Positions 9,816-62,651 are shown, counted from the stretch's first letter. The stretch: DNA of 64,000 nucleotides from Protoeuglena noctilucae (GCA_958009085.1 OY253685.1:620001-684000); one strand, 5' to 3'. The notes: a model not told the origin generated them from the letters alone. Translations and numbers: made by a program.

Positions 9816-12800
9816 ATGGTGCTGCGCCTGGCGGCGGCGCTCCCGCGCGCGGCGGACGGCGGCTCATGGATGCCAAGCAAGTGCTTGCTGCGGAACAGAG
9901 CGCGTGGTATCCCCCGCCCGCCGCGCGGGGGCCGGAGGCGCCGGCTGCATCGGAGGATGTGCTTGACAGCACGGGTGCGTCCGCCCCGCGCCCCTCGGGC
10001 CACCGCAGCCGCTCAGCGTGGTGCGCATTCCTCCATTACCTTTGTCACTTGCGTTTGCAGACGACGAGTCGCTCTCGGATCGGCTCCTGGACGTGGAGGG
10101 CCTGCTGAAAGCCCCGGGCATGGACGGCGACCCGCGCGTGCGCGCGGCGATCGAGTCCGGCCGGGCCGACATGGAGAGCGTACTTCAGGCCTTCCCTTTC
10201 GAGCTCGACGCGTTCCAGCAGCAGGCGGTGCGGGAGCTGCTGGATGGACGCTCAGTCGTGGTTTGCGCCCCGACGGGCGCCGGGAAGACGGCGATTGCCG
10301 AGGCAGCGGCCATCGCCTGCCTCGCGATGGGCCAGCGCGCCATCTACACCACGCCGCTCAAGGCCCTCAGGCGAGCGGCGGCGCACAGAAGGAGCACGGT
10401 GGGCGTTTCCTTCCCGCCCAGCGCAACTCGCTGTCCGCAACTTGCCGAGCGACGCATCTAGTGTATCCAAACTGCATCTACTGTAACCAAATGTGACTGT
10501 TGAAGCTCTCTGGTGGCGCCCGCAGCAACCAGAAGCTGTTTGAGATGCGCGCGCGGTTCGGTTCCGACCGCCTGGGCCTTCAGACGGGCGACATCTCGCT
10601 CAACAACGAGGCCGACATCACGATCATGACCACGGAGATCCTCCGCAACATCATGTATCGCATCCAGGTCGAGCGGCAGCGCGGCGGCGACGCGACCTCG
10701 GCTGCGGCGTCCACCAGCCTGCCGCCGGCTGTGGCGACCCAGATGCTCAGCGGCGGATCCTCAGCTCGCCTGGACGACGTCGGGCTCATCGTTCTCGACG
10801 AGGTGCACTACCTGGGGGACCCCTACAGGCGAGCGCGGGCGTGTCACAGCTGTTCGCTTATCTTGCAAAGCTGCGTCTGGTTCTTTAAGCTACATCTTTT
10901 CAACTATTCCTCTTAATAATAAATTGCATTGCGCCCGCGCAGGGGCACGGTGTGGGAGGAGGTCCTGATCAACTGCCCCAAGCACGTCCGCATCCTGGCC
11001 ATGTCGGCCACCGTCCGCAACCCCGACGAGCTCGGGAGCTGGATCAACGACATCCACGGGGACTGCAGCACTGTCAAGACAAGCAAGCGGCCCGTGCCGC
11101 TACTCTGGCGAGTCGGCGGCGAGATTGCAGACGTGCCCTGCACTTGCAGGCAGCAGCGCATCGCTTGCGCAGTGGGTGTGCGGGGAAGGATACCCCTGCT
11201 TACTTCCTTGCTTGTACTATCTACCATTCGTTTCCTCCTTCATTCAGCACTCGATTGCTTTGCGAACAGCTCTCGCACAAGGCTTGTGCTTATCTACAAC
11301 CCAGGGTGCATATCGAAGAAGTGCAGATCCCCTTCTCCCCTACTCGTAGGCAGTTCTGCATGAGGGAGGGCCGCCGCACACGAATGGTCCCCCTGCTCGC
11401 GCCGTCGGGGCGGCAGCTGAGCCGGGAGCTGAGGGCCCCGCAGGACAGACTGCGCGAGCTGGTCGAGGTGAGGGCATGGAGTGGGCGCATTCGTAATGCA
11501 TGGGTAACGACGATTGTCTCGTCGCATTGACAATGACGCTGCCTGCGGTGGGTATGAGTGGCTGCTTCTGCCATGTTGTTATAACTTATTTTTACCGCAG
11601 GAAGCGGGTGGCAGCTGGCAGGAGTGGCGGGGACTGCGGTTCAAGGGCGACGGTCAGGGGCGAATTGAGGACGGGGGCAAGCCATGGAGCCTGTTTGACG
11701 AGCGCATGGCCGAGGTGAGAGTAGCTTTTATTGAGTGAGATGGATCACCCAGGGGCTTGATTGACGACCGCATGGGCGAGGTGAGAGAGTAGCTATGGGT
11801 ATCTATGCTAGTTTGCCCAAAAACGCGTTTGACTGTCATCCACGTCACCCTTTCTATTCCTCAGATGGTAGTACTATCTAAATCAGACACATCTATATCG
11901 AAGCACACAATAATGCCGCTCCCATCCCCGACTCCTCATCTAAGCACACGTCCCTGTCTCCCTCATTTCACTCCCCAGGCCCCCATCATGCGCTCCGCCC
12001 GAACAAACATGTTTGTCGTACCCCCATTCCTTTTCTAAGACCCCTATGTCACCCTCATCTCACTCCCCTCTGTCCAAACACACAACCCTGTCGCCCTCAT
12101 CCCCTTTCCATACCCACACACACCCCTATCACCCTCACCCCCAGGCCCCCACCATGCGGTCCGTCCCCCCCATGGACGATGTGATCGAGGAGCTCCGTTC
12201 CCGACAGATGCTGCCCGCCATTTGGTTCGTGTTCTCCCGGAAGGGGTGTGACGCGGCGGCCGCGCAGATCGCCAGGGACTGCCGGGCGCTGGTGACGGAG
12301 GCAGGTGAGAGAGTGGATGAGTAAAGATGGCAGGGCGCTGGGTCATGGTACGATGTGATTGAGAGAAGGCAGTTGCAGGGCATTGGTTATTGCACCTAGA
12401 CTCCGACATTGTCGTTACTTTTGCCATCAACACCCTCGTTGAGACCCCACTCATCAACTCCAGCCCCACCACTCGCACCCAGAGCGCCGCGCGATCGAGG
12501 CGGAGGTGTCGCGCGTCCGGGAGACGCAGCCCGAATGCCTGCGCCCCGACGTGGTCGGCCTGCTGAGTCAGGGCATCGCGTCGCACCACGCGGGGTGCCT
12601 GCCGGGATGGAAGGCGCTGGTGGAGAGGCTCTTCCAGCGAGGGCTGGTGAAGGTCGTCTTTGCCACCGACACGCTCGCCGCCGGCATCAACATGCCCGCC
12701 AGGACCACCGGTGCGGAAGCGATGCGATCTGTTTATGATGTATGGTTGTTGACATGGCTCGCTGGGTTTGGTCGATATCATGTTTGATCCATCCGACCCC

Positions 12801-22729: not shown

Positions 22730-25700
22730 ATGGCCATGGCCCTTCTGCGCCAACGGGCGCTCGCCGCGGGTCTGTCCGCGAGCCCGGGAGATAGTCGGCG
22801 ACCTTCGTCCAGCGGAAATGGCCCCTCCTTTCCCGCTCTTTCCACGAGCAACGGCCCGGCCGTCCCCGCGCAAGCCGCGTCGGTCACTGGCGCCAATGAT
22901 GCCACCCCGTTCGTCCCCACCGTTTCGCCGGAGGGCCCCTGGGGCCTCGCGCCGGTGCCAGAAATGCGTGGCGGCGTGGTCAGCGCAGAGGCCTATCACC
23001 CCAGCCATGGGCACCCCGCCGGGGGCCTGACGGACTGGGCGCGGGTGGGGCTGGAGCCTGTGGAGCCCGCGGGGCCTTCGCCTGTTGGCTACGTGCCTCC
23101 GGGCGCACACGCACGGGGCGGCGTGAGCAGCGGGGTGCCGGTACAGAATGGGGGCCCTCGGGTGGGCTCGGTGTCGCCCACCGCACGTGGCGTGGTGTCC
23201 GGGGATGGCCGGGAGAAGGGCAAGCGGGGCAAGGGGCCTGCGGCGAACGGCGGTGCATCGGGGCGATACATCGACATGCTGCGGACGCTGCAGGAGGCAC
23301 GGGCGCCCGCACAGGCGAGTGGGTGTGGCACATGGTGCGAGCGAGCGAACGGTGAGGGAGATGTAGCCCCTAGATATGAAGGGAGCGGAACAGACCGCTA
23401 CCTGTGGCTCTTGCCCCTGCATTTCAAGGACACCCAGGCCAGCCTTGGGTCGCTGTTCTTACCATGTTTTCACCTGTCTTAATGCATCTCCCCTTCTCGT
23501 GCTTTGCAGGCTCCCGAGGGCACCCCGGCCGGCCCCGGGGGGTCTCTGTTCCCCGACGCCGTCTCCGGGGCACACGTGCGCGTGTGGGCCGAGCGGCTGG
23601 TGCGTCGGTGCGAGAGGGAGGTGCAGGCGCTCGAGTTGAAGCTGCGGGAACACCGCAAGGCGTGGAATGCGCAGCGGTGAGGGTCGGGGACAGGTTGCGT
23701 TGGGTGGGCGACGGTGGATGCGAAGGGAGGTGTTTAGCGATGAGGGTGGGGAATGGGTGGCAAGTTAAGAGCATGACTCACAGTCCACCTCGAATTGTTG
23801 TATCAATCGCTAGAAACCCCCTGTCGTGCTCTCTGTGCAGTGACGAGATGGCCTCGGAGCTTGAGACGCTGCGCCGGGCGTCGTTGCGCGCGGAGGAGGA
23901 GGTGGCGCACGCGGTGGCGGAGGTGCGGGAGGAGGCGCGGGCGGAGATGGATGCGGCGGAGGAGAGGCACCGGAAGCTGCTGGAGAGGCTGGAGAGGCAC
24001 ACCCGGCAGGCGCTCAAGGTGAGAGGCATTGGTAACTGTGGGAGAGGAGAGCGGGGCACACGGGGCAAGTTACTGGAGAGGCTGGAGAGGCACACTGCTA
24101 CTAGCCTCCAGTTGCATCGAATGTTTGTCAGTATGAGCGTGTGGGTGTGTAAGTGTGCATGGTGAACCAAGGTTGATTGTCAACTGCAGGCCCGTGATGA
24201 CGCGGCTTTGGAGCGACTGGAGGAGGCGAGGAGGGAATTGGAGGCTGGGGTGGTGCACTACGAGGCAGTGGCGGAGAGGTGAGGGGTGGAACGAAGACGC
24301 ACGAGGGTGTTGAGCGTCATGAGGCAGTGACGTATGCAGTGACTCGCTAGTTCTGCGGATGGACCCAATTGATTTGCTCGTATTGTTTCGTCAACCGTCC
24401 CAGGACCCTCATGGCGTATACGCGGGTGAAGGACTGGGCGAGGAGGAAGCTGATTCTCCGGGAGTGGCTGCTGCTGGCGAACCACTCGCGCGCTGCCAAG
24501 GTGCACGAGTCGCTGGTGCAGGTGAATGGCGGGGCGGGGGTGCGGGTGGGGGTGCGGGCATGAAGCAAGGCACGAGTGCGGGTGCGGGGTTTTCAGTCCC
24601 TACCAGCGCAAGCAGAGCCAGACCCGCCGGTACCTTGATAGCACGTCTCGAGCTTGCCAGCTTGCTTGTGCACTCTTTAGCACTTCGCTCCCGCCACTCC
24701 CACCCGCACCGTCCCCTACTACTCCCCACCCCACCCAACACAAACACAGGTGAAGGACCGAGAGCTGAAGCGCATCAAGGACCGACTGACCACGGAACTG
24801 GAAGAGGCGGGGAGGAGGCAGGTGCAGCGGCTCGTGATGCACACGTGGCGGCTGATGGCGTCGGGGGAGAGGGGCAGGGACGAGGTGGTGGAGCATCTGC
24901 TGCGGTACAAGCGGAGGTCGCACGCGCGTGCTGTGCTGCACGCGTGGAGAGAGCTGGTGCAGGAGGCAGGGTCACAGAGGGCGGCAGCAGAGCAACGGGC
25001 CGAGAGCAAGGCGGAGGCGGGGGCGCGCGCCGCGATGCGGGCGTGGGCGGCGGTCGCGGCGCGGCACCGGGCCGTGCGGCGGCAGCTGGCGGCGTCGGCG
25101 GCTGCCCGGGAGAGGCGGCTGGCGGCCACGGTTCTGGCGGCGTGGACGGTGCTGACTCAGGCGGGGCGAAACGCCAGAGAGGAGCGGGCGGAGCGGGAGG
25201 CCCGGGAGCGCGCGGACGGGGCCGCGGGGGAGCTGCGGCGGCTGGTGGCGGCGTGGCGGGAGGTGGCGCGGGGCAATGGGGCCAGGCGACACCGACTGGA
25301 GATGCTCATCAGCCGCGTGCAGGTGATGTCTCTCTCTTGAGAGCTTGAAGGAGGCCAGAGCACGTTCTCATGACATGCACATGAGATGCATCCATCATGT
25401 GTGTATTGCGCGCGCACCCCATCGCCCAGCCGCCTGCCTGCCACTGACCTGCCCAAGACACCACGCCCCCTCCCCCGCCCGCAGCTCCGCGTGCAGCGTT
25501 GCGCCTTCACCGCGTGGCTCGAGGTCTGCCGGGCCCGCCAGACCACGAGGTGGTGCGTGGAGACGGCGGCGAGGGGCCGGGAACGTCGCATGGCGCGATC
25601 GGCTTTGCTCTCTTGGTCTGCGCTAGCTGAGGACCTCTCGCGCGCCCGCGCCCGCGCGGACGAGATGCGCCGGGAGCGCGACGCGGCGGCGCTGGCGGAG

Positions 25701-27880
25701 GCGTGGGAGGGGTGGCGCGGGGTGGCGCGGGGCGATCACATCGACATCGACACATCGAGCGATGAGGCTGAGCCTGGCTGGGAAGGGGACGACGACGGCC
25801 GCGGCGACTCGAGCGCTGCGGAGAGCGGCGAGGAGGCGAACGCGGATGCGAGTGCGGATGCGGGGAGGGAGGCAAAGGAGAGCGAGCGGACGCGAAGGGT
25901 GGCCGCCCACGTCCACGCCCTCCCACGCCGCGCCCTCCTCCGCTCCCTCTGCCGCCCCGCGTCCGTCCGGTTCCTCCTAGCGTCCATCACGGCCGCGTGG
26001 CGCCTCCAGGCAGCCCAGTCTCGATCTCTGCGGCTGGCGAGAGAGACAATGCACACCCGCAGTCCGAGCGTCGAGCCCTCGTCGGCGCTTGCCAAGCGAG
26101 CGCAGGAGTTCCAGCGGCAGGGGTCGCGCGTGACGCGGTCGGGGAAATACGCAGAGGCGATTGACGCGGGGGCGGTGGCGGGGCAGGCTGGGGGCAAGGG
26201 TGCACGCGGGGGCGGGGGTGGCGCGGGCGGTGGCGAGAGCCGCCCTGCGAGCGCCGGGGGCGGCGCGGCGAGCGCGGATCGCGTGGCGAAGTTGCGGCGG
26301 GAGGTGGAGCGCGTGAGGGTCGAGAAGGATCACTTGGTGGCATTGTTGCAAGCGCTGCAGAGCTCGAGCGCCCAGCGTGTCGCGCAGCAGCAAGACGCCA
26401 TCGACAAGCGGGGCGAGCGCATCGCGGCGATGTTCGCGGCGCAGCGGGGCGCTATGAAGCGCGCGCAGTGCTTCCGGGGGTGGGCGGCGGTGGCGGGTGT
26501 GGGGGCGGGGGCGGGAGCGGGAGCGGGGGATGGCGGGGCGGCGTGGCGCTCTGCGAGGCGCGCGCACCGCACCGACGACACAGCGTCATCACAAGGCGGA
26601 GACAAGCCGGCATCTGTGGCGGGGGCGAGGGCGGCGTCTGGGGCGGCACCCCACGCACCCCACTCAAGCTCTCATGCAAACACTCATCATGCAAACGCTC
26701 ATGCCCACAAGCCCGGGTCTGCGAAGAAGAGTCCCTTAGGCATGGGTGGGGTTACTGGGGCGGGGTACGCGGACGCAGGGGCGCAGCATGAGGCATGGGG
26801 AGCGGGGTCGGGGGCGGGGGCGGGGTTGGTGGCGGGGGGTGGGGAGGAGCGGTGGGGCTCGCCGCAACGGCAGCAGGTGAGTGGATGGGATGTCATGGTT
26901 TGGCTGCGTTTTCAGTGGAAAGCGTCGATATCAATGTCTGGTCGTCCAAAGCACGTATCGCGTGCTGTGCTGCACCGCCGCAGGACGGCCAAGGCCCTCC
27001 CTCGCCATCGGGCCCCTCTTCATCTGCCAATGCGGTGGCTGGGACTGCGTACGACGCCCACGGGTCAAGTGTCGGGGATGCAGGGGCAGCAGGCGCAGGG
27101 GCCACCGCCCAGGGCGCACAGGCGAGGCGCACACGCACTTTGCATGTAATGCCAATGCTTTGCTTTGCAAACAACTGTGCACGTACTGGGCAGCAATCAC
27201 TTTTGCGCACCCTACGCTGCCCTGCTTTCGCCTGCAGGCGCGCCGCGGCATCATGTTCCGTCCCTTCCGTCAGTTCGCTGCCGGTGGCCGCCCCCTAGCA
27301 TCGCAGTCATCGATCGGCGCCAAATCGGTGGTCAGCGTGGGCGGATCCGCACCTGTGGATGGGGGGCTGCATCTGGGGAGCGCCAATGGCAGCATGCAGG
27401 GGCTGGGGAGCACCGCGCCGGTGGGGAGTCTGGGGCCCAGGGTGCAGAGGTGAGGAGACGGTGTGCATGAATAGAACAGGGCTGGTTGCAATACGGCGAC
27501 GGGGGTGGTTGTGGAGTGGCTGGGTGCACAGGGGCCAAATGCTTTACCCTGAGCAATCGGGGAATATATATACTACATATACCGGGCATTATCTGATTGC
27601 TTCTATTGTTTATTTTATGAATGCAGTGCCGAGCACAGTCCCAAGGCGGGTGGGCCGCGGGCCGACGGGCGGGCGTGGAAGGGAGCGGAGGCACCGGAGG
27701 GGTACAAGGACAGGTGAGGAGGGCTGTGGGTGAGATGATGGGTGTGGTAATTACGGTGTGGCGCCAGAGGGGTACAAGGACAGGCATAGGCATATTCGTG
27801 ACCCTCACTGCCGCTTTGTTCCCTGCAGGATTCACTTGTGGCTGGATACCGTGGACAGCATGTCGCAGCTGCAGATGTGA
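22730..27880 (+). CDS. Coiled-coil protein with Sfi1-like Trp repeats (putative centrin-binding/basal-body protein); multi-exon, ends uncertain
   Basis: Frame-consistent exons with recurring helical motifs: KLILREWLL, LVMHTWRL, AVLHAWRE, AAMRAWAA, TVLAAWTV, RCAFTAWLE, ALLSWSAL, AQCFRGWAA; coiled-coil segments. Confidence 0.55.
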
Positions 27881-29816: not shown

Positions 29817-32800
29817 ATGAGCGCTTGCGATCGCCATCGCTCGATTACGCGACGCGCCTGGCCCCGCGCCGACGCGTCCCCCCTCCCCGGCGCGCGGGGA
29901 GGCCGTCTTGTGGTGGTCCCCCTTCGCCGGCCGACGCGACGCTGACCGAGCGGGATCCCCTTTTCCATGGCGAGCCCTCGTCGCAGCTCCCCGAACCAGT
30001 CGCCCGCCCGAGGCCGGCGGCGGAGCGGACCGCCACCTCCCTTTTTCGCGCGCCCGCACGCGGGGCTCCCCTCCGCCGCTTGCCGGGGCGCCCGGCGCTC
30101 CCCGGCGTCCCCGCCGCGTCGAGCGATTGCGTCTTTCTATCCCCTGCGCAGGTCCGAGGCTGCCCTCGAGGGCCCCGCGCGCTCCGGCGGAGGCACATGC
30201 GGGGTCCGACCGCGTGCCCTCCGATGACCGGGACGCAGCGAGCCAGCGCTCCGGGGAGGAGGCATCGAGCAGTTCGAATCCCGTCGAGGATCGCATGCGC
30301 GAGGCGCTGCTGCGCCAGGTCGCGCGATCGGCGGCCAAGGAGGTGTCGAAAGAGACGGCGGCCGTGATCAAGTTCATCACGAGCGGCCACAACGTCGACG
30401 CGGCCTACCTCCGCAAGCGCAGGCGCAGCCGGTGGTGGTCCAAAGTCAAGAAGTCCAAGCTGGCGGTGCCTGCGGGTGAGAAAAGAGCAGCCAGGGGGCA
30501 GGGCGGGTAGGGATGTGCGAGCGCAAGACTGTGCCATGCTTTGCTGTAGCTTCCCTCGCTCTGGCCGCACCGCACTTGTCGTCCCTTGCTTCCTCGTTAC
30601 CCGTCTCGACTCGATTATTTCTTTTTGTACGTAGGTTTACCTTTGGCAAAGACAACCCCAGGTCCCCGACCCTGCCACCCAACCCCCTTCCCTCTCCCTC
30701 CCCTTACCCCCCAGTGATGGTGGAGAAGATCCAGCTCCCCGACTCCGCCTGGGCCATTCTCCGCAAGATGCTCCCGTTGGGCGCCATCTTCTTCGGGTCC
30801 TCCTTCAACCTCACGCTCTTGCAGAATCTGAGGGATGCGCTGGTGGTGACCACCTCGGGGGCGGAGGTGCTGCCGTTCCTGTCCGCGCTGTGGTGAGGGA
30901 TTTGATGACAGGAGTCGTGATTTCAATTGCTCTGTACTGTCCGCACTGTGGTCAGAGTTGGGAGGGAGGGTGTGGGGGTGTCATGTGGGTTGCTTTGTGC
31001 TGTCCTGTCCGTGCTGTGGTGAGATGGGAGGGGAGAGAGGGTGTGGGGGATGAGTGATATATGTGTGGCCCCTTCCGTCTCTCCACTACCCACCCCCTTG
31101 CTTTTTAACCGACCTCCACCCCCTCCCACCCCACACCCCCACTCCACTACCCCACTACCCTCCCCAGTGTCCTCCCCGCCTCCATCCTCTTCTTCATGTA
31201 CTACTCCGCCCTCATCCAACTGGTGCCCCAGAAGGCCATCTACTATGTCGCCATCAGCACCCTCGTCGCCATCTATGCGGTGTTCGCCGTCGCGCTCTAC
31301 CCCATCCACACGTCGATCCACTTATACGGAGTGGGGGAGGCTCTGAGGGCCGCGCTGCCAGCCGGGTTGCACGGGCTGGCGACGGTCGTGCAGGTGAGGG
31401 GTAGGGGTGGGGTTCACGGGGGGTGGTGGTGGGTAATGGTGGTGCAGGTGAGGGGTGGGGGTTGATGAGGGTGGGAATGGGTGATGGTAGTGCAGGTGAG
31501 GGGCGTGGAGTGGGGTTGGCGGGGGGGTCATGGTGGGTGGTGGTGGTGCAGGTGGGGTGTGGTTGACGGGGCGGTTGCTCGGGGGCCCACGGCTCACCGC
31601 ACTCGTTGCACAACTCGGCAGCCATGCGTGCCTAGACGAGAGAGGCACGCATGGCTGCCGAGTTGTGCAACGAGTGAGGTGAGCCGTGGGCCGCCGGCAC
31701 CGCCACCTCTATCAGCCCCATCTATCAACCCCACTCTCCCCACCCACTCCCCACCCCATCCCCCACTCACCCCCCCAGGACTGGGCCCTTTCCCTCATCT
31801 TTTATCCCTATTCGTCCTCACTCCTTTGTCAATCGCCCCACCCCACTCGCACCCATGCCCCCACCCACTCTGAACCCCCCCAACCCCACCCACACTCCCT
31901 CCAGGACTGGACCCTGTCCCTTTTCTTCTGCTTCGCGGAGATCTGGGGATCCGTGGTCATCTCCCTGCTCTTCTGGGGGCTGGCCAACGACGTGTGCAGC
32001 GTCGACGAGGCAAAGACGATTTATCCATTGATGGGAATGGCGGCCAACGTGGGGCTGATCGTGTCGGGGTCGTTTATGAAGTGGGCGGGGGACTTCTTCC
32101 AACACGCGGGGGGTGGGGGGACCAACACGCAGGTGAGGGGGTGGGGTGGGGCTGGCGTGCGGGTGTGAGGGGTGTGAGGGGTGGAGTGGGCAGTGTCAGT
32201 TAAACGCGCACACACCTATCCACTCATTCATCCATCCACCCACCCACCACACCTCTATCCGCAGGCATTGCTCCAGATGTATGTGGCGACGATGGTGGTG
32301 GTGACGGGCGCGATGTTCGCCTTTAAGGGGTACATTGATCGGACCTTTTTGAAGGAGAGGGACGACAGGGACGCGATGGATCCCCTGAAGAAGAAGGCGA
32401 GTGGATGGTGGACAGGGGTGTTGATATGGGGATGCTACGCATGCACAATGACAACGTCATTCACAAATTTCATACTTATCATCCCTCCCCTCTCTCCCCA
32501 GAAGAAGAAGAAGGGCAGCATGCAGGAGAACCTCGCGCTGCTCACCAAGTCCCCCAAGATCCTCAACCTGGCCCTGCTGGTCATGTGTTACTCGGTCGCC
32601 CACCGACTGTTCGAGTTCTCATGGAAGGGCCAGCTGCGCACCATCTACCCCACCATGATTGAGTATCAGTCGGTGCTGGCAAGCGTGTCTATCGGCACGG
32701 GGTGGGCCACCATGCTCATGATGCTGCTGGGGAGGTTCGTGTTCCAGTACCTGGGGTGGGGGTTCGCGGCGCAGGCCACGCCCCTCGTCATGCTGCTGTC

Positions 32801-34025
32801 GGGTGAGAGGGAGTGGGAGAGGGTGTTGGGGAGAGAGGGGTGGGCGCAACGCTTCTTTCCCCACACTCACTGCCACCCTCACTGCAACCCTCACTGCCAC
32901 CCTATCCTCGTCCTCACTGCCACCCCCACCCCGCATCTCTCCAACACTCACCCACCCCCCCCCTCAGGCGGCTTCTTCTTCATCTCCTCCCTCGCCCCCC
33001 GCCTCACCTCGGTGCTCCCCCTGGGTGGATTCGACCCCACCTGGCTCCTCACGGCAGGGGCGCTGGCCGGGTGCATCACGCAGGTGTTCGCGCGGTCGTC
33101 CAAGTTCTCGCTGGTGAGTCGTTTATCACTGTCAGTTATCATTATCGTTGATCATAAGGTATGCAAACACACTCTGGCGCACTGTTGCCCCACCATTCCA
33201 CCACCCCACCTACGACCTACCGCTGCCCCAGCTACCGGCCCCACTCTCACCCCCACGCCCTCAACCCACACACCACCCTCCCACAACCCTCAACACCCAC
33301 CATCCCCCACCACCCCCTTCAGTTCGACCCGGCGAAGGAGATGGTATACATCGAGATGAGCAAGGAGGAGAAGCAGCGTGGCAAGGCGGCTGTGGACCTG
33401 ATCGGGGCGCAAGTGGGCAAGTCGGGCGGCGCTTGGATCACACAAGCATTGCTGCTGGTGACTGGCACCCTGACCCAGTCCCTCCCGTTCGTGATGGGGG
33501 CGTTCACGTTCATCATCGCCGTGTGGCTGCGGGCGGCGAGGCAGCTTGAGAAGGAGATGAAGAGGACGGAGGAGAGGAGGACGGAGGTGAGTCACTGTGG
33601 GGTGTTTGAAGATGAATGTCAGGGTGGCGGAGGTGAGGGGGTGTGTGGGGTGTTGTTGTGGAGAAGGAGGGAGAAGGAGATGAAGAAGACGGAAGAGAGG
33701 AGGACGGAGGTGAGCGTGGGGTGGTGGGTGTGTTTGGGTCATGTGTGCGGGTGGGCGGGTCAAGGTCAATCGCTGCTGAGTGCCACTAAGCTCTCTGTTC
33801 CATGTTGCGGTTCAAAGTGTATATAGCAACTAAACTCACATATTCCATCTCGTCCCACCCCCCCAGGAGATCGTGCAGGAGCAGGAGGCACGCGACAAGA
33901 AGTGGCGTGACGAGTCGGCGCTCTGGCAGACGGCGCAGGGGACAGGCGGCAATGGGGCCAACGGGGCGAGGGTGGGGGCGGGGGGGGACCCGGTTCCCAT
34001 GCAGACGGCGAGCCAGGGGGCGTGA
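29817..34025 (+). CDS. NTT: Plastid-type ATP/ADP nucleotide transporter (NTT/TLC family), divergent; 5' end uncertain
   Basis: KMLPLGAIFF..FNLTLLQNLRDALVVTTSGAEVLPFL, FAEIWGSVVISLLFWGLAND, AKTIYPLMGMAANVGLI, KFSLFDPAKEMVYI, GKAAVDLIGAQVGKSGG. Confidence 0.9.
31584..31692. repeat. Intronic inverted repeat: 50-bp arms, 1 mismatch, 9-nt loop
   Basis: Arm 31584-31633 is the reverse complement of 31643-31692 except at one position; loop agacgagag. Confidence 0.95.
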
Positions 34026-38581: not shown

Positions 38582-41500
38582 TCATGCAGCGCCGAGAATC
38601 TGCTTCTCCTTGCGCTCAAGGTTCCTGGCCTTAAGCATGTTGGCCGCCGTGAGTGCGCCGAAGATGGCCGCGGCACCAAATGCGGCGTACGAGGCGGCGG
38701 TCATGGGCACCACGGCCAGCACCGTGCCCACGTTGACCATCATCGACGCCATGATGGCCGTCGCCGTCGCCTGCTGCGTCACCGCCACGCGCGCCAAAGC
38801 ACGCTCGGCCTCCAGGGCCCTGCAGGAGTGACACACAGGGATGGGCACGTTACCACAAGTGACGGCAAGTTGACGCAATGAGTCCAAGGGCCGTCGGGGC
38901 CGTCCGCCCTTCATATGTAAGACATATGAAGCATGGGCTTGTTCCCACCCAACCCCACCCAACCTGCCAGCATCGACTCTAGTCGCTCGCCTGACCCTCA
39001 GCTTCAGGTCCCCCCTCTCGAGCCTCTGCGCGAACCCGGCCACGTCCTCGATCATGTTGGGCCCCCGGAACAGGTTGACGACCGCCCGGTTCTGCAGCGC
39101 CGCGCGCTGCTTGAGCTCCTCCTCCCATTTCTTGAGCAGCGGGCGGGACTCGAGCAGCAGTCCCCGCGCGTAAGGGGCCGACACCTCCGTAATGTCGAAC
39201 TTCTTGTCGAGCGCCTTGCCGATGCCGTCGAGGACCGTAAAGGATCGAACCACAAAGGTGAACTCCGCCGGGAAGCGGAACGGCTGGTCCTGCGCCACGC
39301 TGAGCAGGTCCTCGCCGATCGCCTCCAGGATCTGCTTGCGCCGCATCTTGGCCTCCTCCTTGCTCTTCGGTTTCTTGAACTCCTGGCCGTACTCCGTCCC
39401 CATCTCCTCCCGCTGCACCCGCTGCTCGTCCAGACGGGTCTCGAAAGACTTGAGGAAGAACTCGCCCACACGGCGCACCGCCGTGCGGTCGCTCCCCGGG
39501 TTGGGGATCAGCACGCCCATCTGCACGAGGGCGTCGATGCAGCGGTCGGCGTCCTTGGCGTAAACGCCGTAGAAGAGCTTCAGCAGGCCCTCGCGCACGC
39601 CCGGCCGCAGCTGCCCCATCATGCCGAAGTCGTAGTAGATGAGCTTGCCCGTCGCGGGGTCCACGGACACGTTGCCGGGGTGCGGGTCTGCGGTGGGGAG
39701 AGGTGGGGGGTGAGTGGATCGTGGGTGACGGGGCAGCAAGCGTGCGTGGGGCGCTGTCGTCACAGTCGTGCATCCATCTCCGATAGCTATATAAACTATA
39801 TATGGTGAGCACCAGCGTAACATCCATGCAACATTATACATGACATCACAATCCATGCAGCCACTCTCCGCCTGCGCCTCACCGGCGTGGAAGAACCCGT
39901 GCCGCAGGATCTGAATGAGGTACGACTCCACGGCCAACCTGGCGATCTGCTTCTCGTCGATCCCCTGCTTGACCAGCTCCTTCTTCCTGTTGATCTTGAT
40001 GCCGGGCACGTACTCCATCACCAGCACCTGGGGGGAGGTGTAGTCCCACAGCACGCGGGGCACGCGCACCCACTGCTGGGGAGGGAGTGAGAGGGAGGTG
40101 AGGAGAGAGGAGTGGGTGAGACGAGTGTTACTCCGCACATCCATGGCCATCTCGATTCACATCTCCTACATCTGTTCGTGTCAAGCACCCGCCCCGCTCT
40201 CCGGCCCATCATGCACCCTCCACTCTCGCCAACCTCACAACTACAGTCCACGTCGTCACCCACAATCCTCATTCTACCCCTTTATCCATTCAGCAATCCC
40301 CAACACAACCCCACGCACCTCTGTTTCCGCGAAGTTCTCCCGGAAGCGGTCGGCGTTGTTGCCCTCCTGGCGGTAATCGATCTCCTGGTACAGGATGCGG
40401 CTGCACTCGTCGTAGATGGCAACCCAGTCCCTGCGACACACGAACACGGCAGATGCAACCCGGTCAGTGCAGTTCCAGTTGGGAAGGTTTCCTTTCCTAC
40501 CCCGCAGCCCCTGCCTGACCGCCCCACCAGGTCGGCACTACCGCATTGTTTACCGCATTGTTTACCGCATTGTTTACCTGGCTGTGCCGTCCGTCTTGGG
40601 GTCGAGCTTCTGCAGCCATTGCGCCAGGACGCGCACATTCTTGAGATCGATGTCGAAGAGCTCCTTGAGCCCTGGGCGCTGGATCTTGACGACCACCTTG
40701 CGACCCTCGCCGGGTGGGGAGCCGTCCCGCAGGCGCGCCAGGTGCACCTGCCCCAGCGACGCGGCCGCGATGGGCTCCGCCTCGATATGCTCGAAAACCT
40801 CAGACACCGGGCGGCCCAGGCTCGTCTCCAGGATGCGCATGGCGGCCCCGCTGTCAAACGCCGGGACGCGGTCCTGCAGCTGCTCCAGCTCCTCGATGAA
40901 CTCCTTGCTCAGCACGTCCACGCGCGTCGAGAACTGCTGCCCGATCTTGATGAACGTCGGGCCTAAGCGCACCAAGCCCTCGACCAGCCACTTGGCCAGC
41001 TCCCGCTTGCGCGCGCTCACGCGCTGCGGCGTCATGCCCTCGCGGCCGTACGTGAAGCGGCGACCGAGGAGCCAGTATCGAAAGAAGAACTTGACGGCGA
41101 ACGACCAGATCTCCCAACTCCGCTGCAGCGTCGAGTAGCCCTTGATCTTGCTCCACCGCGCCGGCGCCGCGTACGGCGTCCCCGCCGCGGACGACAGCGA
41201 CTCCTCCTCCGATTGCTGCTCGTCGCCGCTCTCCGCGTCCCCCGCGCCCGTCTCCCGCGGGCCCGCCACCACCTCTGCCTCCACCGCTGCCCCGGATGAC
41301 GATGCCCCCGCCTCCGCCCCCGCGCCGCGGACCGGCTCCGCGCCGTTCGTCCCCGGCTCCTCCACTCGCACCGTCAGCTCCTCCTCGCCCGCGTGGGCCG
41401 CGCCGTGCCCGTTGGCGCCGTTGGCCCCGTTCACGCGCGCCACGCCATTGCCATTGCTCGCGCCGTTCCACGGGCGATCCCCGCCCTCGTCTTCGTCCAC

Positions 41501-45545: not shown

Positions 45546-48500
45546 ATGTCGCAGCCTGCGCCCCAGGCCCCTCTTCCGCCGGAAAAGTGAGAATAAGACA
45601 GCGAACATCTGCAGTGCCTAGTCAGTGTCACACTTCGCCCCGTTTGCCGCCGCTTCACGCGCCACGCTCCCGCTGATTCTCTCCCAACACTCGTACACAC
45701 TCGCCGCGCTCTCTGCAGTGTCCGGTGGTTCTACTATACCTTCCCGCTGGAGGCCCTGAACAGCCCCAAGGGCTCCAAGATTCTCCCCGCGCAGTTGGCA
45801 TCCGACGTCTGTCCCAAGGTCTGTCACTGTCTTCGAGCACCATGCACACGTCGTAACTCACTGCCTATCTAACTACTTAATAACTTATCTCCCACTTCAT
45901 CGCCGTGGCAACTTCTTCCGTCGCAGGGCTGCGTGCTCCCCTTCGCGTATCAGGAGTCGCTGGTCTTGGAAGCTGTGCACCGCCAGCACCCAAGCGTGCG
46001 TGCCTGCCCCCAGCGCGGCCACAAGGCGCCCAGTGCCACGGCATACACGGAATGGTGACGGTTGCGATACAAGAATGCAATTGGAAATGAATGCGATTGG
46101 AAAGGATGTGCAGCGTCGACTGTGTTTGGCCCAAGCGCCGCCTAGGCTATCAGCTCCCTGCTATTGGCTAGCTATCGGCCCAAATATGCACTGCACACCC
46201 GCCAATGCGCTCATCCACTTTCAGGAACTCGCGAGCGGACCAGCCGACCGAGCCCGGCACCGACTGCCCCAAGGTGTGCGTGAGGGGCGCGTTGTACGAC
46301 GCCCTGCTGGGGAGGCGCGAGATGGAGGCGGCGTACTGGCCAGGGTCCACGCACGCCATCGTCAGGGGCACGTGGTTCTGGTGAGGGTGGCAGGGTGATG
46401 ATAATGCGCTGTAGCTAGCTGCCTGTCACGCATGGCACGAACACCGTGCCATTCCCGCAGCAACGCCTCCAAGAAGGCTCCCAAGAAGGAGAAATGGGTT
46501 CCATTACGGGAATCCTTAGCAGATAAGATCGAGGAGATATGGGCGTCGAAGCCGTGGGTGCAGGGTCTGTCTGACGTGGCCCTGACCACAGCGGCGGGGG
46601 CGTGGGTGGTGTCGTTCCGAGGAGAGGGGGAGGTGTACCTGTCAGCGCAGGTGATGGGGTGTGTGGCGATGTGAGAGAAAGGGAGGGGGTTCAGTGATGA
46701 GTGTACCGGTCGGCGCAGGTGAGGGTGAGGCGATGAGAGAGAGAGAGGGTGTGGTGATGGGTGCCCTGAGTGGGGGTGACCTCCATTTACGAAACCCAAC
46801 CTTGCTGTGACCTCCAGGAGCCCTCGGCCATGGACAGGCTCAAGGGGTTCTTTCGCATGAAGAACGCCTCCAGTCTGCCGCCGGGAGCCATGGCCATCAG
46901 GCGAGAGCAACACGCAATGCGCAACGTGCAATGTTTCACGGCCGCCTCCCTGCCGCCACAGCGTGCGTCTGCTGCTTTGCTGCTTCCATTGCAGTCATAT
47001 CTCTACTCTCGCAGAACCCCGCTGCCCCTCTCACCCCACCGCCCACCCCAAACACCCCGCCTCTCCTCACTCGCAGGCGCGGCCTGGACACCTCCTGCCC
47101 CACCCCCCTGGGCTTCGATCTGGATGTGGACGAGTACGCGTCCAAGACGCCCGTCACCCACCTCGTGTTTACTGTGCACGGCATCGGGCAGAACCTCCCC
47201 TACACATCGACGGTGTGGAGCGACTCCAACGCCCTTCGGCGGCGCATGGTGAGGGGTGTTGGCGTGGAGTAGTGTTGCAGAGGGTGGGTTGCAATGCTTG
47301 GTGGGTGCGTGTTGGGGGGGAGTGGCATAGCAAAGCGGGGTTGGCGGCAGTCGCGAATAAAACAGAGGTCAATGACACCGCAAGCAAATCCACATCGATA
47401 CGCTCTCCCCTCAGTTCGCCTTGGCGGGCAAGCACATCCCCGCCGACGTCGCTGCTGCGGGGAGGGTCGAGTTCATCCCCATCAACTGGCGCAGCGCCAT
47501 CACCCTCGTGAGTGGCATGCATGGTATCTGCATGCAGCGTGATGCTGTATCCCGGCCCACTGCCTCAGTCGTTGATCCCGCTTCGCTTGCCATATGAAGT
47601 GCAGCCATTGGGACATATGATGGCGGCTGACCCTGGTTGACACCAGCTGGCCCATGAGCTATTTATGCTACAAGCACTCGTGCTGTTTCACTTATGTGCG
47701 TCTCACTAACATCGTCGTCGTCTCTGTCAACCGCAGCCGAGCGATGACCTCGTGCCCCTCGTGTCGCCCCAAGGGGCCGCCAATCTGCGATCCCTCATGG
47801 CCAACACCATGCACGAGGTGCTGGCCTACATGAGCCAGCCACAGGTGAGTGCAGATTGTGGTATTTTGCACAGAATGTGGTACACTCCCTCATTACCGCT
47901 CAGGTCAATGCTACCCTCACTCACTCACACCGCCACCCTCACCCGCCCACCCACACCACTGCAGGCACAGCAGATGGTCCACTCCCTCACCGCCACCCTC
48001 AACCGCGCCTACGCCAAGTTCAATTACCGCCACCGCTCCTTCCAAGGCAAGGTCTCTATCCTCGGCCATTCTCTTGGATCCGTGATGTGCTATGACGTGC
48101 TTTGCAACCAGCCGAGCCTCTACGCCAACCTGGGCGTACCCACCCGCCCCGCACCATCAACCAGCATCCACTTCCCCGCCCTGGCGTTCCCAGGCGAGTC
48201 GATGTTAATGTGATTTACGATGGAACATGATAAGCATGATAGTAAGAGAACATACACAGCACGAACACATGCGTGATGCGTCGAGCTGTGAGCCGTCAGT
48301 TGATGTTACTATCATCACTAATGATAGTGCGTAATCTGAGGTGATATGTGTACTATTTACGCTCCTTTTGCCCCGCAGTCGACAACCTCTTCCTCCTGGG
48401 CAGCCCCCTCACCGCCTTCCTCTCGCTGCGCGGGTGCAACCCCGCTGCCCCGGGAGCGTCCCCCACCACCCTCGGCATTCCCAAAGACAACAACAACAGC

Positions 48501-50109
48501 AGTAACAACAGTGTTAATGACAACAGAGTTCGCAGGGAAGACTCCCGCACCTCCATCGCCAACGCCCGCACCCCCAGCACCTCACAAGCCACCGCCGCCC
48601 ACGCCACAGCCACTGCCCTTGACGCGAGAGCCCCCGCCGGCCCCACCGCCCCGCACCCGCCCCCGCACGGCTACGGCGGCGTCGGGGACGGCCTGCCAGC
48701 TGTGCGCCGGCTGTGGAACGTGTTTCATCAGTATGACCCAATCGCCTATCGGGTAGAGCCCTTGGTGGATGTCGCCATGAGCGGGACGGCGGTGGTGGAG
48801 ATGCCGCGGGTGCCGCGGTCAGCATACGACGAGGTGAGAAAGGTGGTGTCCCTTTGGGTGTGCCAAACACCTCGCGCAGCACGTTCTCCCAGCATCCCCA
48901 TGTCACACATCACGCAGCACGTTCCCTTCCGCCCCCGCCCCCCGCAGGCGCTGGGCAGCGTGTCCGACAAGCTGTCCTCAATGCTTCACATGGCCAAGTC
49001 GACCATCAAGGTTGGGGATGCTGCCGTTGAAGCCGAGGAGGCGGCGGCGGAGGCGATGGACGCCGCGCAGCAGAACACCAGGCGAGCGGTGGGAGAGTTG
49101 GATGGGTGCATTTGATGATCGATGAATGGATGGATTGAATTGGATGAATTCAGTGAGTTGCCAATACCTCACTGTGAGTATCACTCACTTGTTCTCTCTT
49201 GGCTGGCTCATGCGCTGGTCAGGTGTGAAGGCCTTTCCTTGTCGCAGGAGCACGGTGGAGGAATTCGAATTCGCGACCGGGGACCTCCCCGGGTCGGAGC
49301 GGCGAGGCAGCGTCCCGGCCCCGTCGCTGCTCGCGTCCCGGGCCACCTCGGCATGGCGTGTCACGGTGAGATGGGGATCGTGCTGAGGACAAGACTGCCT
49401 GTTGATTGCGCTGCTGATGCATTGTGGATGGGACTGCCTTGGGTTATTGTGCTACTCCCTTGCGCACCCACAATTCACACAACACCCGAGACTCCCCCCA
49501 CGCCACCACGCCACCATTCCATGCCACACACAGCGCAACCCACTCCCGCCCTGCCCCCAGGGCGGCCTCCCCACCGCCCAGTCCCTGGGCCCCGACTGCG
49601 CGTCGATCAGCAGCGTGCAGGGGCGCATCGACGTGGCTATGCCACCCGACTCGTCCAACTCCATCGTGCAGGCCATACGCGCTGTCAGGGCGCATACGGG
49701 GTACTGGTGAGTGTGCGCATACGGGGTGGTACTGGTGAGCGTGTGCATGTGGGGTACTGGTGAGCGAGATTGTACTTGTCTTTATTGCTCGTGGTCGTGG
49801 GATCAGTGTATGGGAACGTTTGGGGCATGGTCCGGGCACAGGTGAGCCAAGCGGCATGGTGCGCGGGCGAGCGTTGCTGGGGCTAGTGGTACACTGCACT
49901 GTGTCACCGCTGATCGTCACCCTTGTTGGCCGCAGTGAGAGCAACAGCGTAGTACTCGTCGTCACTCTTAATCGTCACCATTGACTGTCACCTATGTTTG
50001 TCACCTCTGATACCCACTCCATGGTCGCAGTGAGAGCAACAGCGTGGCCCTCTTCCTCGCCCGCGTGTGCTACGGCATCGACCCTCTCGCCAAGACCAAA
50101 GCAGCGTGA
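45546..50109 (+). CDS. DDHD-domain phospholipase A1 (PA-PLA1/SGR2-like)
   Basis: VRWFY, VRGALYD...YW...IVRGTWF, THLVFTVHGIGQNL, VEFIPINWR, lipase motif ILGHSLGSV, NLFLLGSPL, NVFHQYDPIAYRVEPLV, GRID...AHTGY. Confidence 0.88.
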
Positions 50110-50757
50110 CGACATTGGTTTGCCAAGACCAGAGCCACGTGACCGCATCTGCACACTCGCCAAGACCAAAGCCACGTGACGACATTGGCTGATCAAGACC
50201 ATCGTAGCACTGACATCGAAAAGGTCTGTCGAGCTGATGTCTAGCACTGCTGCCTTGGACATGACCCACAAAGCCGACTGTTAGATGTGACGCGCACTGC
50301 TCCTGCCACACAGGGCCATGCGTTTCCAAGTGTCTTGTGTTTGTTTGTTCCCGATAGCCCATGTAAACCAGAAGATATGCCAAGCGGCCTTCAATGAGTC
50401 AGCTTGCGCTGTCACGACGCTGTGCGGCCTGCCTAGCACGATCACAACTAGGACCTTGATGCTTGAAACCCGATGCAATGCCATCAGGAGGATCCATCAA
50501 AAGGTCTCGTCCATTTAGCTACACTACAGTCAAAGACAGGGTGGGTCACGGAACAGCAAGGGCACAGAACGTGAGGTGAGGAAACGTCGCATGTCATGGT
50601 ATGCAGCTGGGTGCGTGTAGGCAAGGGGGCTCGCGATCCCCAATCCCACCGTCGGTCGTGGAAAGGAATTCATGCCAGAGATCACGGACCATGCGCGCCG
50701 TCAGAGTGCGTCCGCGTAAGATGCCCCGTCTCAGACGTCACGAGGCTTGAAGTAGAC

Positions 50758-59685: not shown

Positions 59686-59837
59686 GCAAACAAGCCGCGA
59701 CGCCACGCTGCGCCACGTTCCCCGAGGAGCCTGCGCCCACGTCGCGCGAATGGCGCTTGAGGGGCCGGCGACCCTGAAGGCAGTTTCTATGGGATCACGT
59801 GCGGCGACTGCGAACGAGTAGTGGGTTCGGGTCGACT

Positions 59838-62651
59838 ATGGCGCCGCAGGCGAGAGGCTTCAGGTTCCGAGTGCGTCGACGAGCTCGCTTGGCCAGTCGT
59901 CCGATTGTCGCGCTGCAGCGCTGCGTCGCAGGGCCTCCGCAATCCGAAAGCGAAGGGGAGGAGGACGCCGTCCTTACCCGAGGCCGCGAGCCTCGGATCC
60001 ATCGACGAACATGATTTGCTCCTGCCAACGGTGGAGTCGCACGGCAGCGCTTTCGGCATCGCGTCGCCCACCCGGCTTAGCTTGGGTCAACAGCCATACG
60101 CTGGCCCATCGGGGCATCAACATGACCGCGAGGCGCAAGAGCACGCAGAGGGGGACCGAGACCCACACACGAGCCATGGGTCCGGCAAGGTGTGTCTCCG
60201 TGCCATGCCGCAGAGACAGCCCTGTTCCTTCCTCCCGGCGACACCGATGGGGACGTGCAGTGCGGCTGTGCATCATGCAGACCCAGAGTGTGCTTGGCCC
60301 CTGCAGTCGGGCACCGGGCGAACGATGGTCAACATCTGCATCAGCTTCGTGGGCTCTGGGATCCTAGGCCTGCCCTACGCCTTCTCCAAGGGCGGCATGG
60401 TCCAGGGCATCGCCATTATGGCCGCCGTGGGCGTGGTTGCTTATCACAACATGATGAAGCTTGTCGCATGCAAGCGGAAGGCCGCCAATCGCGACGTGCA
60501 TACCTACAGCGAGCTCGCCGCGCACTACCTGGGCCCGTGGGTGCGTCCGGGATTGCTGATGGGTTATGCCTAGTTGACGAATGCATCACACCGGTGTTCG
60601 TGTGGTGACAGTATAGTGACCAGTGTGCTTTGGCATTACCGCCCCTTCCCTAATCGTCTTTGCAGGCCCGGGCGGTCGTGGAGGCGGCCATCGTGTCCAG
60701 CCAGGCGGGCTTCTCGATCGCCTACATGCTGTTTATCGGGAAGAACATGTCTGGCATCACGGGTGAGAGCTTGGTGGGAGCGAGGCAACGAGCGAGTCGT
60801 GGTACATGGCAGCATGGGCCCCCTGTTAGGGCCCACACGCTGCCCCATAGACTCGTCTTCGCAGCCTAATCCTTGTAGCCCCATCGCACCCCTTCAGGCC
60901 TCCCCGGCTTGCTCCTCATCACTGTCTCTGAGCTTCCCAACCCCAATCGCCCCCCCCCCCCCCCTGCCCCCAGGCCTCCCCGGCTGGCTCATCATCGCAG
61001 TCTGATCTTCCCCAAATCCCAGACTGATCTTCCTAACCCCCATCGCCCCTTCTCTCAGGCCTCCCCGGCTGGCTCCTCATCACTGTCACTGATCTTCCCA
61101 ACCCAAATCCCAGACTGATCTTCCTAACCCCCATCGCCCCCTTCAGGTCTCCCCGGCTGGCTCCTCATAGCAGCCTGCGCCCCCGTGGAGATGGCCCTCG
61201 CCCTCGTCCGCTCCCTCACCTCCCTCGCGCCCTTCTCCCTCATCGCCAACGCCGCCAACCTCATCGGCGCCCTCGTTGTGCTCGCGGAGGACGTCCAGCA
61301 CTTCCCGCAAGCCCCCGGCATCCACGCATGGGACACGCGGGGCTTCACGTTCCTGTTCGGGGTGTCCGTGTACTGTTTCGAGGGGATGGCGATGGTGCTG
61401 CCTCTGGAGGACGCGGCTAAGGACAAGAGGGCGTTTCCCAGAGACCTCGCGATCGGATTGGCGGGCATCACGGCGCTGTACGTGTCCTTCGCTGGGGCGG
61501 GGTGAGACGCGGGGCTGTTGGGGGTTGGATGAAGTGAGCTGGTTGCTGCGAGGGGTGAGGTGCGTGGCTGCTTGGGGTGAGATAGGGGTGAGAGGGGAGC
61601 TGCAAGGGGTGAGATGCGTAGCAAGCAGGGACAGCTGCGTGCGCAATGGCAGCAAAGCATTGGCAGACCGCCTGACGCCGACGCCAGCGGTGTCGGTGTT
61701 CTAAGAAGGGTTCAACAGCGATCGACGGCACTCTCGCAGGTACTGGGCGTTTGGTGCGGTGCAATGACAAAAGACATCATTATGCTCAACATCTTTGTAT
61801 CCTCGCAGGTACTGGGCGTTTGGTGCTGAGACGAAAGACATCATCACGCTCAACATCTCAGGGCGTGCGGGGGCGTTGGTCCAGACGTGCCTGAGCGCGG
61901 GGTTGCTGCTGACCATGCCCATCATGATGGTCCCATGTGAGCCGCATGCAAGTGATGATGATAGTCCCACGTGAGCTGGGGTTTGACTGGATTCAGAACG
62001 GTCATGTCGCTCACCGTAACGTCAGACAAGAGGGGATAGGATCCAATAGGTTCTGACAGACTTAGCACACCCAGCGCTTTCTTCGCTGCTACCCAGGTTA
62101 CGAGATTTTCGAGCGGTCGATGCTCCAGGCCCCGCTCAGCAAGGGCGCGGAGGGACACGTGAGGCTGACCGTGTTCCGGCTGACCCGGGTGCTGGCGGTG
62201 GCGGGGGTGGTGACGGGTGAGGGCTGCGGGAGTGGCAGGGTTGCAGAGCTTGCGCGCTTGTTGGCCGGCCTCTCACCAACTTGTCAACAAGGCTTGCAAC
62301 ACATTCCTATCCTCCTGTGACCTGCTCCCTCGTTCCGCTGCCACTTCCAGGCCCCCACGTTCTCCGTGTCCCTCCCTGCACCCCGCAGCGTCGCTGTTCA
62401 TCCCCTCTTTCGGGGCACTGATGGAGCTGATTGGGAGCGTGTCGTGTTCCACCCTCGCCTTCGTCATGCCACCCCTGATCGAGCTGGGAGCCAGCAAGAA
62501 GGACCTGCCCATCCCCTCCATCATCCTGAACGTGCTCTACATGCTCGCGGGGGTGTACCTGGCCCTCACGGGGGTCGCCGATGCCGCAGCCAACATGTTA
62601 TCGGCAACAGGCCACCATACCGCACCTGCCCCATCTGGCACCCACGCATAG
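59838..62651 (+). CDS. Amino acid transporter (AAAP/Aa_trans family, ANT1/AVT3-like)
   Basis: NICISFVGSGILGLPYAFSKGG, TYSEL, SQAGFSIAYMLFIGKN, RSLTSLAPFSLIAN, FGVSVYCFEGMAMVLPLE, GYWAFG..TKDIITLN, IPSFGALMELIGS. Confidence 0.9.
60891..61175 (+). repeat. Four tandem copies (about 75-90 bp period) of a splice acceptor plus exon start; only the last copy is coding
   Basis: cagg(c/t)ctccccggct(t/g)gctc(c/a)tcat at about 60895, 60971, 61056 and 61144. Confidence 0.9.

What the first reader, a model, noticed from the sequence alone, without database searches (positions are those of the whole stretch)
11695..61860. Introns that carry degenerate 'echoes' of their own splice junctions
Seen: at least 11 introns in 6 unrelated genes (ISE2, Sfi1-like, NTT, ABC1K8, DDHD, amino-acid transporter) contain imperfect 12-65 nt copies of their own exon end plus donor in the 5' part, and/or their own acceptor plus exon start in the 3' part. 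Some have 2-3 copies. Where homology constrains the frame, the outermost copy is the functional one. Echoes are gene-specific, so this is not a dispersed repeat family. All echo-bearing introns I found have GT donors. Established: tandem duplication across a splice-like site is a proposed route to intron gain and splice-site sliding. Inference: there may be a junction-focused local duplication process (slippage, or templated repair near splice sites) that grows introns and creates decoy, alternative or recursive splice sites. I do not know of this being described at such density, but I cannot check the literature.
Basis: partly seen in the sequence, partly recalled or inferred. Interest (0 to 1): 0.85.

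Follow-up and report, generated by a model that had tools for sequence, protein, structure and literature searches.

The report
Splice-junction copies inside algal introns
In this marine green alga about one intron in seven carries decayed copies of its own splice junction; they look like leftovers of ordinary local DNA duplications that do no harm because the cell still splices at the outermost site.

Summary
With my own gene models (110 introns; 14 fixed by RNA contigs, more by a transcript-derived protein and homologues), the last or first 24 nt of an exon has a copy in its own intron in 6 of 110 donors and 6 of 110 acceptors. Exon ends of other introns score as well in 19 and 22 of 11,990 pairings. 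About 15 introns in 7 genes are affected, some with 2-3 copies. Wherever RNA, protein or homology decides, the outermost site is used. An independent contig set reproduces the DNA exactly.

In longer context most echoes are degenerate tandem or near-tandem duplications of 12-125 nt units. Introns here are rich in tandem repeats. Windows inside introns have same-intron copies about as often as junction windows do. Junction-spanning loci exceed a uniform-placement model about 1.5-2 fold. Most of that excess, not all, goes if the constrained exon copy keeps echoes recognisable for longer.

The closest precedents are in print: the human F7 intron-7 minisatellite, and tandem repeats concentrated near intron ends in Chlamydomonas and Volvox. 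I file this as a new member of a known kind. A truly junction-focused process is not excluded.

The parts
11682..11794 (+). ISE2 intron 11715-12144, donor side: exon end plus donor (11682-11726) and its echo 11749-11794 (39 of 47 identical, offset 66-67)
   Evidence: exon structure from homologue P0001 and my model
11968..12166 (+). ISE2 same intron, acceptor side: echo 11968-12000 of acceptor plus exon start (real junction 12144|12145), with further copies of the C-rich acceptor tract between
23970..24100 (+). Sfi1-like intron 24019-24189: exon piece 23974-24002 copied at 24067-24095 (93%); the donor itself is not included
   Evidence: (family D16); intron is ab initio only
24497..24588 (+). 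Sfi1-like intron 24522-24749: weak echo 24566-24588 of the exon end (21 of 26)
   Evidence: ab initio only
27671..27784 (+). Sfi1-like intron 27714-27828: echo 27740-27784 of the last 43 exon nt (34 of 45; the last 22 nt identical by my count); GT lost in the copy
   Evidence: ab initio only
30868..31023 (+). NTT intron 30893-31167: exon end plus GTGAG, echoed at 30928-30955 (GTCAG) and 30998-31023 (GTGAG)
   Evidence: (RNA joint at the first site)
31378..31560 (+). NTT intron 31394-31904, donor array: CAG|GTGAGG echoed at 31438-31459, 31480-31503 and 31542-31560; unit about 48-56/102 nt, 72 of 90 identical over the long unit
   Evidence: family D3; RNA joint
31763..31927 (+). NTT same intron, acceptor echo 31763-31801 of CAG|GACTGG... 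(real junction 31904|31905), offset about 126
33548..33714 (+). NTT intron 33587-33866: exon end plus GTGAG (33548-33591), echoed at 33607-33637 (degenerate) and 33671-33714 (42 of 44). The frame stays open to the second echo donor (+123 nt).
   Evidence: families D8, D18; RNA joint
37612..37668 (+). HVA22 intron 37404-37648: candidate acceptor echo, offset 29
   Evidence: intron is ab initio only
40539..40578 (-). ABC1 kinase intron 40431-40577: perfect 12-nt array (GTAAACAATGCG on the coding strand, 3.3 copies) whose first unit starts at the donor G
   Evidence: (RNA joint)
46633..46749 (+). DDHD intron 46651-46817: exon end plus donor echoed at 46701-46727; near-tandem unit of 68 nt (44 of 55)
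   Evidence: homologue P0123 aligns across the intron
47868..48006 (+). DDHD intron 47845-47964: exon-start pieces echoed at 47868-47892 and 47918-47946
   Evidence: homologue P0123 shows a 40-residue gap exactly over the intron
49690..49766 (+). DDHD intron 49707-50030, donor side: 25-nt tandem repeat, 3 copies; the first unit spans the exon-intron boundary
   Evidence: (RNA joint at the first donor)
49927..50058 (+). DDHD same intron, acceptor echo 49927-49963 of GCAG|TGAGAGCAACAGCG... (real junction 50030|50031), offset 95
60882..61168 (+). Amino-acid transporter intron 60763-61146: three echoes (60882-60919, 60967-61004, 61041-61080) of acceptor plus exon start; array unit 76-91 nt
   Evidence: (families D9, D10, D13); P0121 (99% identical, transcript-derived) joins 60764 to 61143/61147
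61733..61858 (+). Amino-acid transporter intron 61502-61808: 64-nt tandem duplication (1.9 copies, 87%). The upstream copy has frame-breaking indels; the downstream copy is the exon.
61921..61976 (+). Amino-acid transporter intron 61937-62096: exon end plus GTGAGC echoed at 61955-61976 (19 of 22), offset 34

Best explanation
The echoes are remnants of ordinary local tandem or near-tandem duplications with units of about 12-125 nt. This is minisatellite-type slippage, unequal exchange or repair synthesis, and it is frequent in the introns of this green alga.

A duplication that straddles a donor or an acceptor adds a second splice site inside the intron. The spliceosome keeps using the outermost site, so the mRNA is unchanged and the extra copy is neutral, like a duplication wholly inside the intron. 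The same events inside coding sequence survive only when they keep the frame.

The intronic copy then decays. The exon-derived part stays recognisable longest, because its template copy is held constant by selection and is not low-complexity. This makes echoes look junction-centred.

Shown: the copies, their gene-specificity, their near-tandem layout, use of the outer site, the high repeat load of introns, and the frame filter in exons.
Inferred: the mutational mechanism, the neutrality, and the decay bias.
For: Echoes are real and gene-specific: 6 of 110 and 6 of 110 own junctions against 19 and 22 of 11,990 other pairings.

Layout: in longer context many are near-tandem. NTT 31394: 72 of 90 identical, offset 102, gap 14. 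NTT 33587: 76 of 98, offset 123. DDHD 46651: 44 of 55, offset 68. DDHD 49707: period 25-28. TRF calls four arrays across junctions, with periods 15, 25, 91 and 64.

Background: intron-internal 24-nt windows have a same-intron copy downstream in 33 of 716 cases and upstream in 30 of 716, against 6 of 110 for each kind of junction window. Exon windows further in drop to 2 of 110 and then 0 of 110.

Selection filter: TRF arrays per kb are 1.79 in introns, 0.83 in CDS and 0.48 elsewhere. 18 of 24 CDS arrays have periods divisible by 3, against 12 of 33 intronic arrays (P = 0.007).

Outermost site used: RNA joints for NTT 30893, 31394 and 33587, ABC1K 40431 and DDHD 49707; P0121 for three transporter introns; P0123 for DDHD 46651 and 47845.

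Other points: the exon share of the duplicated unit varies widely. Echo material accounts for the extra intron length, residual median 149 against 138 nt. No crossed or target-site-duplication pattern: 1 of 110 and 1 of 110, both in short introns where the regions overlap.

Precedents: the human F7 IVS7 minisatellite, whose first unit spans the boundary and whose pseudo-sites stay silent (abstract); tandem repeats densest in introns and near intron-exon junctions in two green algae (abstract and passages).
Against: Junction-spanning loci are more frequent than uniform placement predicts: 15 of 22 against 9.06 (P = 0.005); 15 of 19 against 7.38 at score >=16 (P = 0.0001).

In NTT intron 8 the exon-derived echo is 42 of 44 identical, while the intron-derived rest of the same unit is only about 63% alike. 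That is more contrast than a two-fold rate difference gives.

Intron-internal TRF arrays also lean towards intron ends: mean normalised distance 0.39 against 0.5, KS P = 0.064. Eight arrays lie within 12 nt of the acceptor. The only expectation I computed is for the donor side (3.13, against 2 observed); the acceptor-side expectation should be similar but was not computed.

Echoes are unevenly spread: 14 of 74 introns in + strand genes against 1 of 36 in - strand genes (P = 0.02, post hoc).

Most introns are my own ab initio calls, and the sample is one 64-kb window.
Confidence: 0.6

Rival explanations
1. A mutational process truly focused on intron ends. For example, replication or transcription stalls at the G-rich 5' and C-rich 3' intron flanks and is followed by template switching. 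This would duplicate junction-proximal DNA preferentially and grow introns from their ends.
For: Excess of junction-spanning loci over uniform placement. Intron-internal arrays lean towards the ends, free of exon-constraint bias. Introns are strongly G-rich in the first 60 nt (+0.175) and C-rich in the last 60 nt (-0.222). Strand bias of 14 of 74 against 1 of 36. Five donor echoes share an offset of 66-70 nt. A U-shaped repeat distribution in green algal introns is in print.
Against: Window-level rates at junctions and inside introns do not differ clearly (P = 0.49 raw, 0.064 specific). Breakpoints are spread over the unit. The whole-window offset histogram has only a mild bump at 64-71 nt. 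The strand and offset patterns were found post hoc in a small sample.
Confidence: 0.22
2. Some echoes are kept by selection as working splice sites: backup, decoy or alternative sites, including in-frame alternative donors.
For: By my reading of the alignments, about 10 of 14 donor echoes keep an intact GTGAG-type or identical donor, and the acceptor echoes keep CAG. The NTT intron 8 echo is 42 of 44 identical and the frame stays open, so its use would add 41 residues. 5 of 11 donor echo offsets are multiples of 3. GGTGAG is enriched in 5' intron halves, 20 against 7.7 expected.
Against: No RNA contig joint shown uses an echo site. P0121 uses the outer sites. Several echoes have lost GT or carry frame-breaking indels. 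The GGTGAG excess is about the number of echo copies themselves, by my count. 5 of 11 in frame is not different from one third.
Confidence: 0.1
3. Footprints of intron creation: either a tandem duplication of an AGGT-containing exon piece, or a mobile 'introner' with target-site duplication.
For: Direct repeats at introns are the hallmark of both models (recalled; search listing). Marine algae are known introner hosts (recalled; listing).
Against: Both models predict a crossed pattern, with the upstream exon end repeated at the 3' end of the intron. I found 1 of 110 and 1 of 110, both explained by short introns. There is no shared intron family. The echo-bearing positions in DDHD and ISE2 separate blocks that align to homologues as separate exons.
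Confidence: 0.03
4. Chance similarity, gene-model error or assembly artefact.
For: 96 of the 110 introns rest on my own gene finder. The composition is biased.
Against: The control with other introns' exon ends. RNA, protein or homology support for 10 echo introns. Identical sequence in the contigs of run X3.
Confidence: 0.02

Closest known systems
Human F7 intron 7 (IVS7) 37-bp minisatellite (Borensztajn et al. 2006, PMC1557585; abstract read)
   Same: A tandem repeat whose first unit spans the exon-intron boundary. The true donor is therefore followed by copies of itself that stay silent, and the most upstream site is chosen. DDHD 49690-49766 and ABC1K 40539-40578 have exactly this layout, and RNA contigs use the first site.
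   Different: Here there are many loci in one 64-kb window, on the acceptor side as well. Most are degenerate and near-tandem rather than clean arrays. No splicing assays exist.
Tandem repeats in Chlamydomonas reinhardtii and Volvox carteri introns (Zhao et al. 2014, PMC3887541; abstract and 12 passages read)
   Same: In those green algae the tandem-repeat density is highest in introns and then CDS, and repeats are significantly more frequent near intron-exon junctions. The window shows 1.79, 0.83 and 0.48 arrays per kb, and a lean towards intron ends.
   Different: In the passages I saw, that survey treats repeat motifs and their positions. It does not treat repeats that cross the junction and copy the exon end and splice site. 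The organism here is a different, marine chlorophyte.
Intron gain by tandem genomic duplication (Rogers model; potato RdRp case PMC4974935, seen only in the search listing)
   Same: A local tandem duplication involving splice-site-like sequence in a gene.
   Different: That model makes a new intron between the two copies and leaves a crossed repeat pattern. Here the intron was already there and the pattern is uncrossed.
Introners / introner-like elements (recalled; review PMC11282704 seen only in the listing)
   Same: Repeats at intron borders in aquatic algae.
   Different: Introners are dispersed families with target-site duplications. The echoes are gene-specific, and no family was found.

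Membership tests
Boundary-spanning intronic minisatellite with silent pseudo splice sites (F7 IVS7 type) | Head-to-tail repeat units | tested here: met
   TRF arrays 49690-49766 (period 25, 3 copies), 40539-40578 (period 12, 3.3 copies, 100%), 60961-61177 (period 91) and 61733-61858 (period 64). Other echoes are near-tandem, with 3-56 nt between the copies.
Boundary-spanning intronic minisatellite with silent pseudo splice sites (F7 IVS7 type) | Outer unit spans the exon-intron boundary, so the splice site is repeated | tested here: met
   Alignments run through GT or AG in most echoes. Three echoes lack the donor (Sfi1-like 24019, 24522 and 27714).
Boundary-spanning intronic minisatellite with silent pseudo splice sites (F7 IVS7 type) | Outermost site used, inner copies silent | tested here: inconclusive
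   The outer site is used in all 10 echo introns that have RNA, protein or homology evidence. Silence of the inner sites cannot be shown from contigs, and 26 of 41 joints were not displayed.
Intron gain by tandem duplication (Rogers model) | Crossed repeats: upstream exon end repeated at the 3' end of the intron, downstream exon start repeated at its 5' end | tested here: not met
   1 of 110 and 1 of 110 at score >=11, both in 115-120 nt introns where the tested regions overlap the uncrossed echo.
Introners / introner-like elements | Dispersed family of similar intron sequences in unrelated genes | tested here: not met
   13 inter-intron BLAST hits, all low-complexity or a shared 12-nt minisatellite unit. 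One window only; no genome was available.
Recursive splice sites (ratchet points) | Juxtaposed acceptor and donor (AG|GT) inside long introns, used stepwise | not testable with these tools
   The echoes are copies of a donor or of an acceptor with exon-like flanks, in introns of 115-511 nt. Stepwise use would need lariat or nascent RNA data.
Green algal junction-proximal tandem repeats (Zhao et al. 2014) | Repeat density highest in introns and raised towards intron ends | tested here: met
   1.79 arrays per kb in introns, 0.83 in CDS, 0.48 elsewhere. Relative positions of 30 intronic arrays in five bins: 7, 6, 3, 5, 9; KS P = 0.064, so the end bias is only a trend here.

The most novel reading that the evidence does not exclude
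Introns of this alga may grow mainly from their ends, through a duplication process that is biased to exon-intron junctions. The bias could depend on gene orientation relative to replication, or on G-rich and C-rich flanks. Such a process would keep seeding intact spare donors and acceptors, giving raw material for splice-site sliding and in-frame alternative isoforms such as the +41-residue NTT form. Hints: the 1.5-2 fold junction excess, the strand bias (14 of 74 against 1 of 36), the recurrent 66-70 nt offset, and the unusually well kept NTT echo.
Probability: 0.2. Interest if true: 0.7.

Novelty: new member of a known kind. Interest (0 to 1): 0.35.

Why it matters
If the ordinary reading holds, the echoes are a clear natural record of how short introns lengthen by local duplication, and of how robust outermost-site choice makes such events harmless. 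They are also a practical warning for gene prediction in GC-rich algae: intact decoy donors and acceptors lie 25-250 nt inside about one intron in seven.

If a true junction bias exists, this alga would allow a direct test of intron growth and splice-site turnover. It is cultured, has short introns, and is abundant in marine samples.

Tried and rejected
- Earlier notes of this scan: nothing on this genome. A word search gave only unrelated windows.
Seven are without introns in the matched gene; two (L008, L009) are intron-rich but distant, at 41-83% protein identity per block. With my window-trained gene finder, 0 of their 17 predicted introns had an echo at score >=13. Those models are rough, so this is weak.
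- ISE2 exon search: no near-identical transcript-derived protein, best 71%. DDHD exon search: only distant homologues, used for exon checks.
- A special 68-nt unit: five donor echoes have offsets of 66-70 nt, but the whole-window offset histogram shows only a mild bump. Left as unexplained.
- GT-only rule: 0 of 26 GC introns carry echoes (P = 0.02). Only 2 GC introns are RNA-supported and 1 homology-supported, so I do not rely on it.
- Rfam: no family in the window.
- RNA cover outside the joints shown, and the small-share runs, were not used as evidence.
- One literature search failed on syntax. It was replaced.

Full report
What the window is. The 64 kb are GC-rich (0.59-0.77 per 2 kb) nuclear DNA of a marine green alga. 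The best named relatives of its proteins are core chlorophytes: Gonium, Volvox, Trebouxia, Chlorella and Coccomyxa. Marine metagenome and metatranscriptome runs and runs of a cultured 'organism A' hold the stretch 30401-40400. No whole genome is held.

Introns. RNA contigs from three metatranscriptome runs gave 13 usable splice joints in NTT, the ABC1 kinase and DDHD. Two of them are GC-AG with GCGAG donors. One more NTT intron follows from the reading frame. I wrote an exon-chain gene finder, trained it on these introns, retrained it once on its own confident genes and curated by strand and Pfam evidence. It returned 13 of its 14 training introns. The result is 110 introns: 84 GT-AG and 26 GC-AG, median 151 nt. 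Independent checks:
- ISE2 homologue P0001 matches the predicted exons.
- P0121, a 424-residue protein 99% identical to the transporter exon and encoded on a 2,095-nt contig, confirms five transporter introns.
- DDHD homologue P0123 aligns across introns 46651-46817 and 47845-47964.
- The Sfi1-like, HVA22 and most other introns are ab initio only.

Noticed in passing
31580-31696: Near-perfect inverted repeat inside NTT intron 3: 54-nt arms, 96% complementary, 9-nt loop. The contigs of DNA run X3 break there. No Rfam family matches anywhere in the window.
   Followed up: partly
13359-13484; 32861-32929; 47905-47957: The 12-nt minisatellite unit GGGTGGCAGTGA of an ISE2 intron recurs reverse-complemented (88-94%) in an NTT intron, and less well in a DDHD intron. 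Other contigs of run X3 also match 32866-32903, so the unit is dispersed in the genome.
   Followed up: partly
32397-32501 (+); 38820-38990 (-); 10371-10525 (+): GC-AG introns with a GCGAG donor: two supported by RNA, one by homology. 26 of 110 predicted introns are GC-AG, an unusually high share if the predictions hold.
   Followed up: partly
all introns of 130 nt or more (n = 67): Strong compositional polarity: the first 60 nt are G-rich (mean (G-C)/60 = +0.175) and the last 60 nt are C-rich (-0.222) on the coding strand.
   Followed up: partly
50086-50201: A tandem repeat of period 33 (3.4 copies) starts in the last DDHD codons and runs across the stop codon into the 3' flank.
   Followed up: no
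33587-33823: The first 237 nt of NTT intron 8 are open in the exon's frame. Use of the echo donor at about 33710 would insert 41 residues that end in a repeat of the exon's EKEMK.TEERRTE motif.
   Followed up: partly
62216-62418: The transcript-derived protein P0121 leaves my transporter model after 62216 and maps to 62344-62418. This suggests an alternative acceptor or a retained intron near the 3' end.
   Followed up: no
9008-10461: A PET191-like gene lies directly upstream of ISE2. Some Trebouxia ISE2 records carry the PET191 Pfam domain, which suggests the same neighbourhood (or fused models) there.
   Followed up: no
51801-54275 (-): A very GC-rich (0.77) 2.5-kb open frame encoding a low-complexity Ala/Gly/Ser/Pro/Arg-rich protein was fused by my gene finder to the NIPA-type transporter gene. 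It is probably a separate gene or a long disordered tail.
   Followed up: no
window-wide: Echo-bearing introns sit almost only in + strand genes: 14 of 74 against 1 of 36 (Fisher P = 0.02, post hoc).
   Followed up: partly
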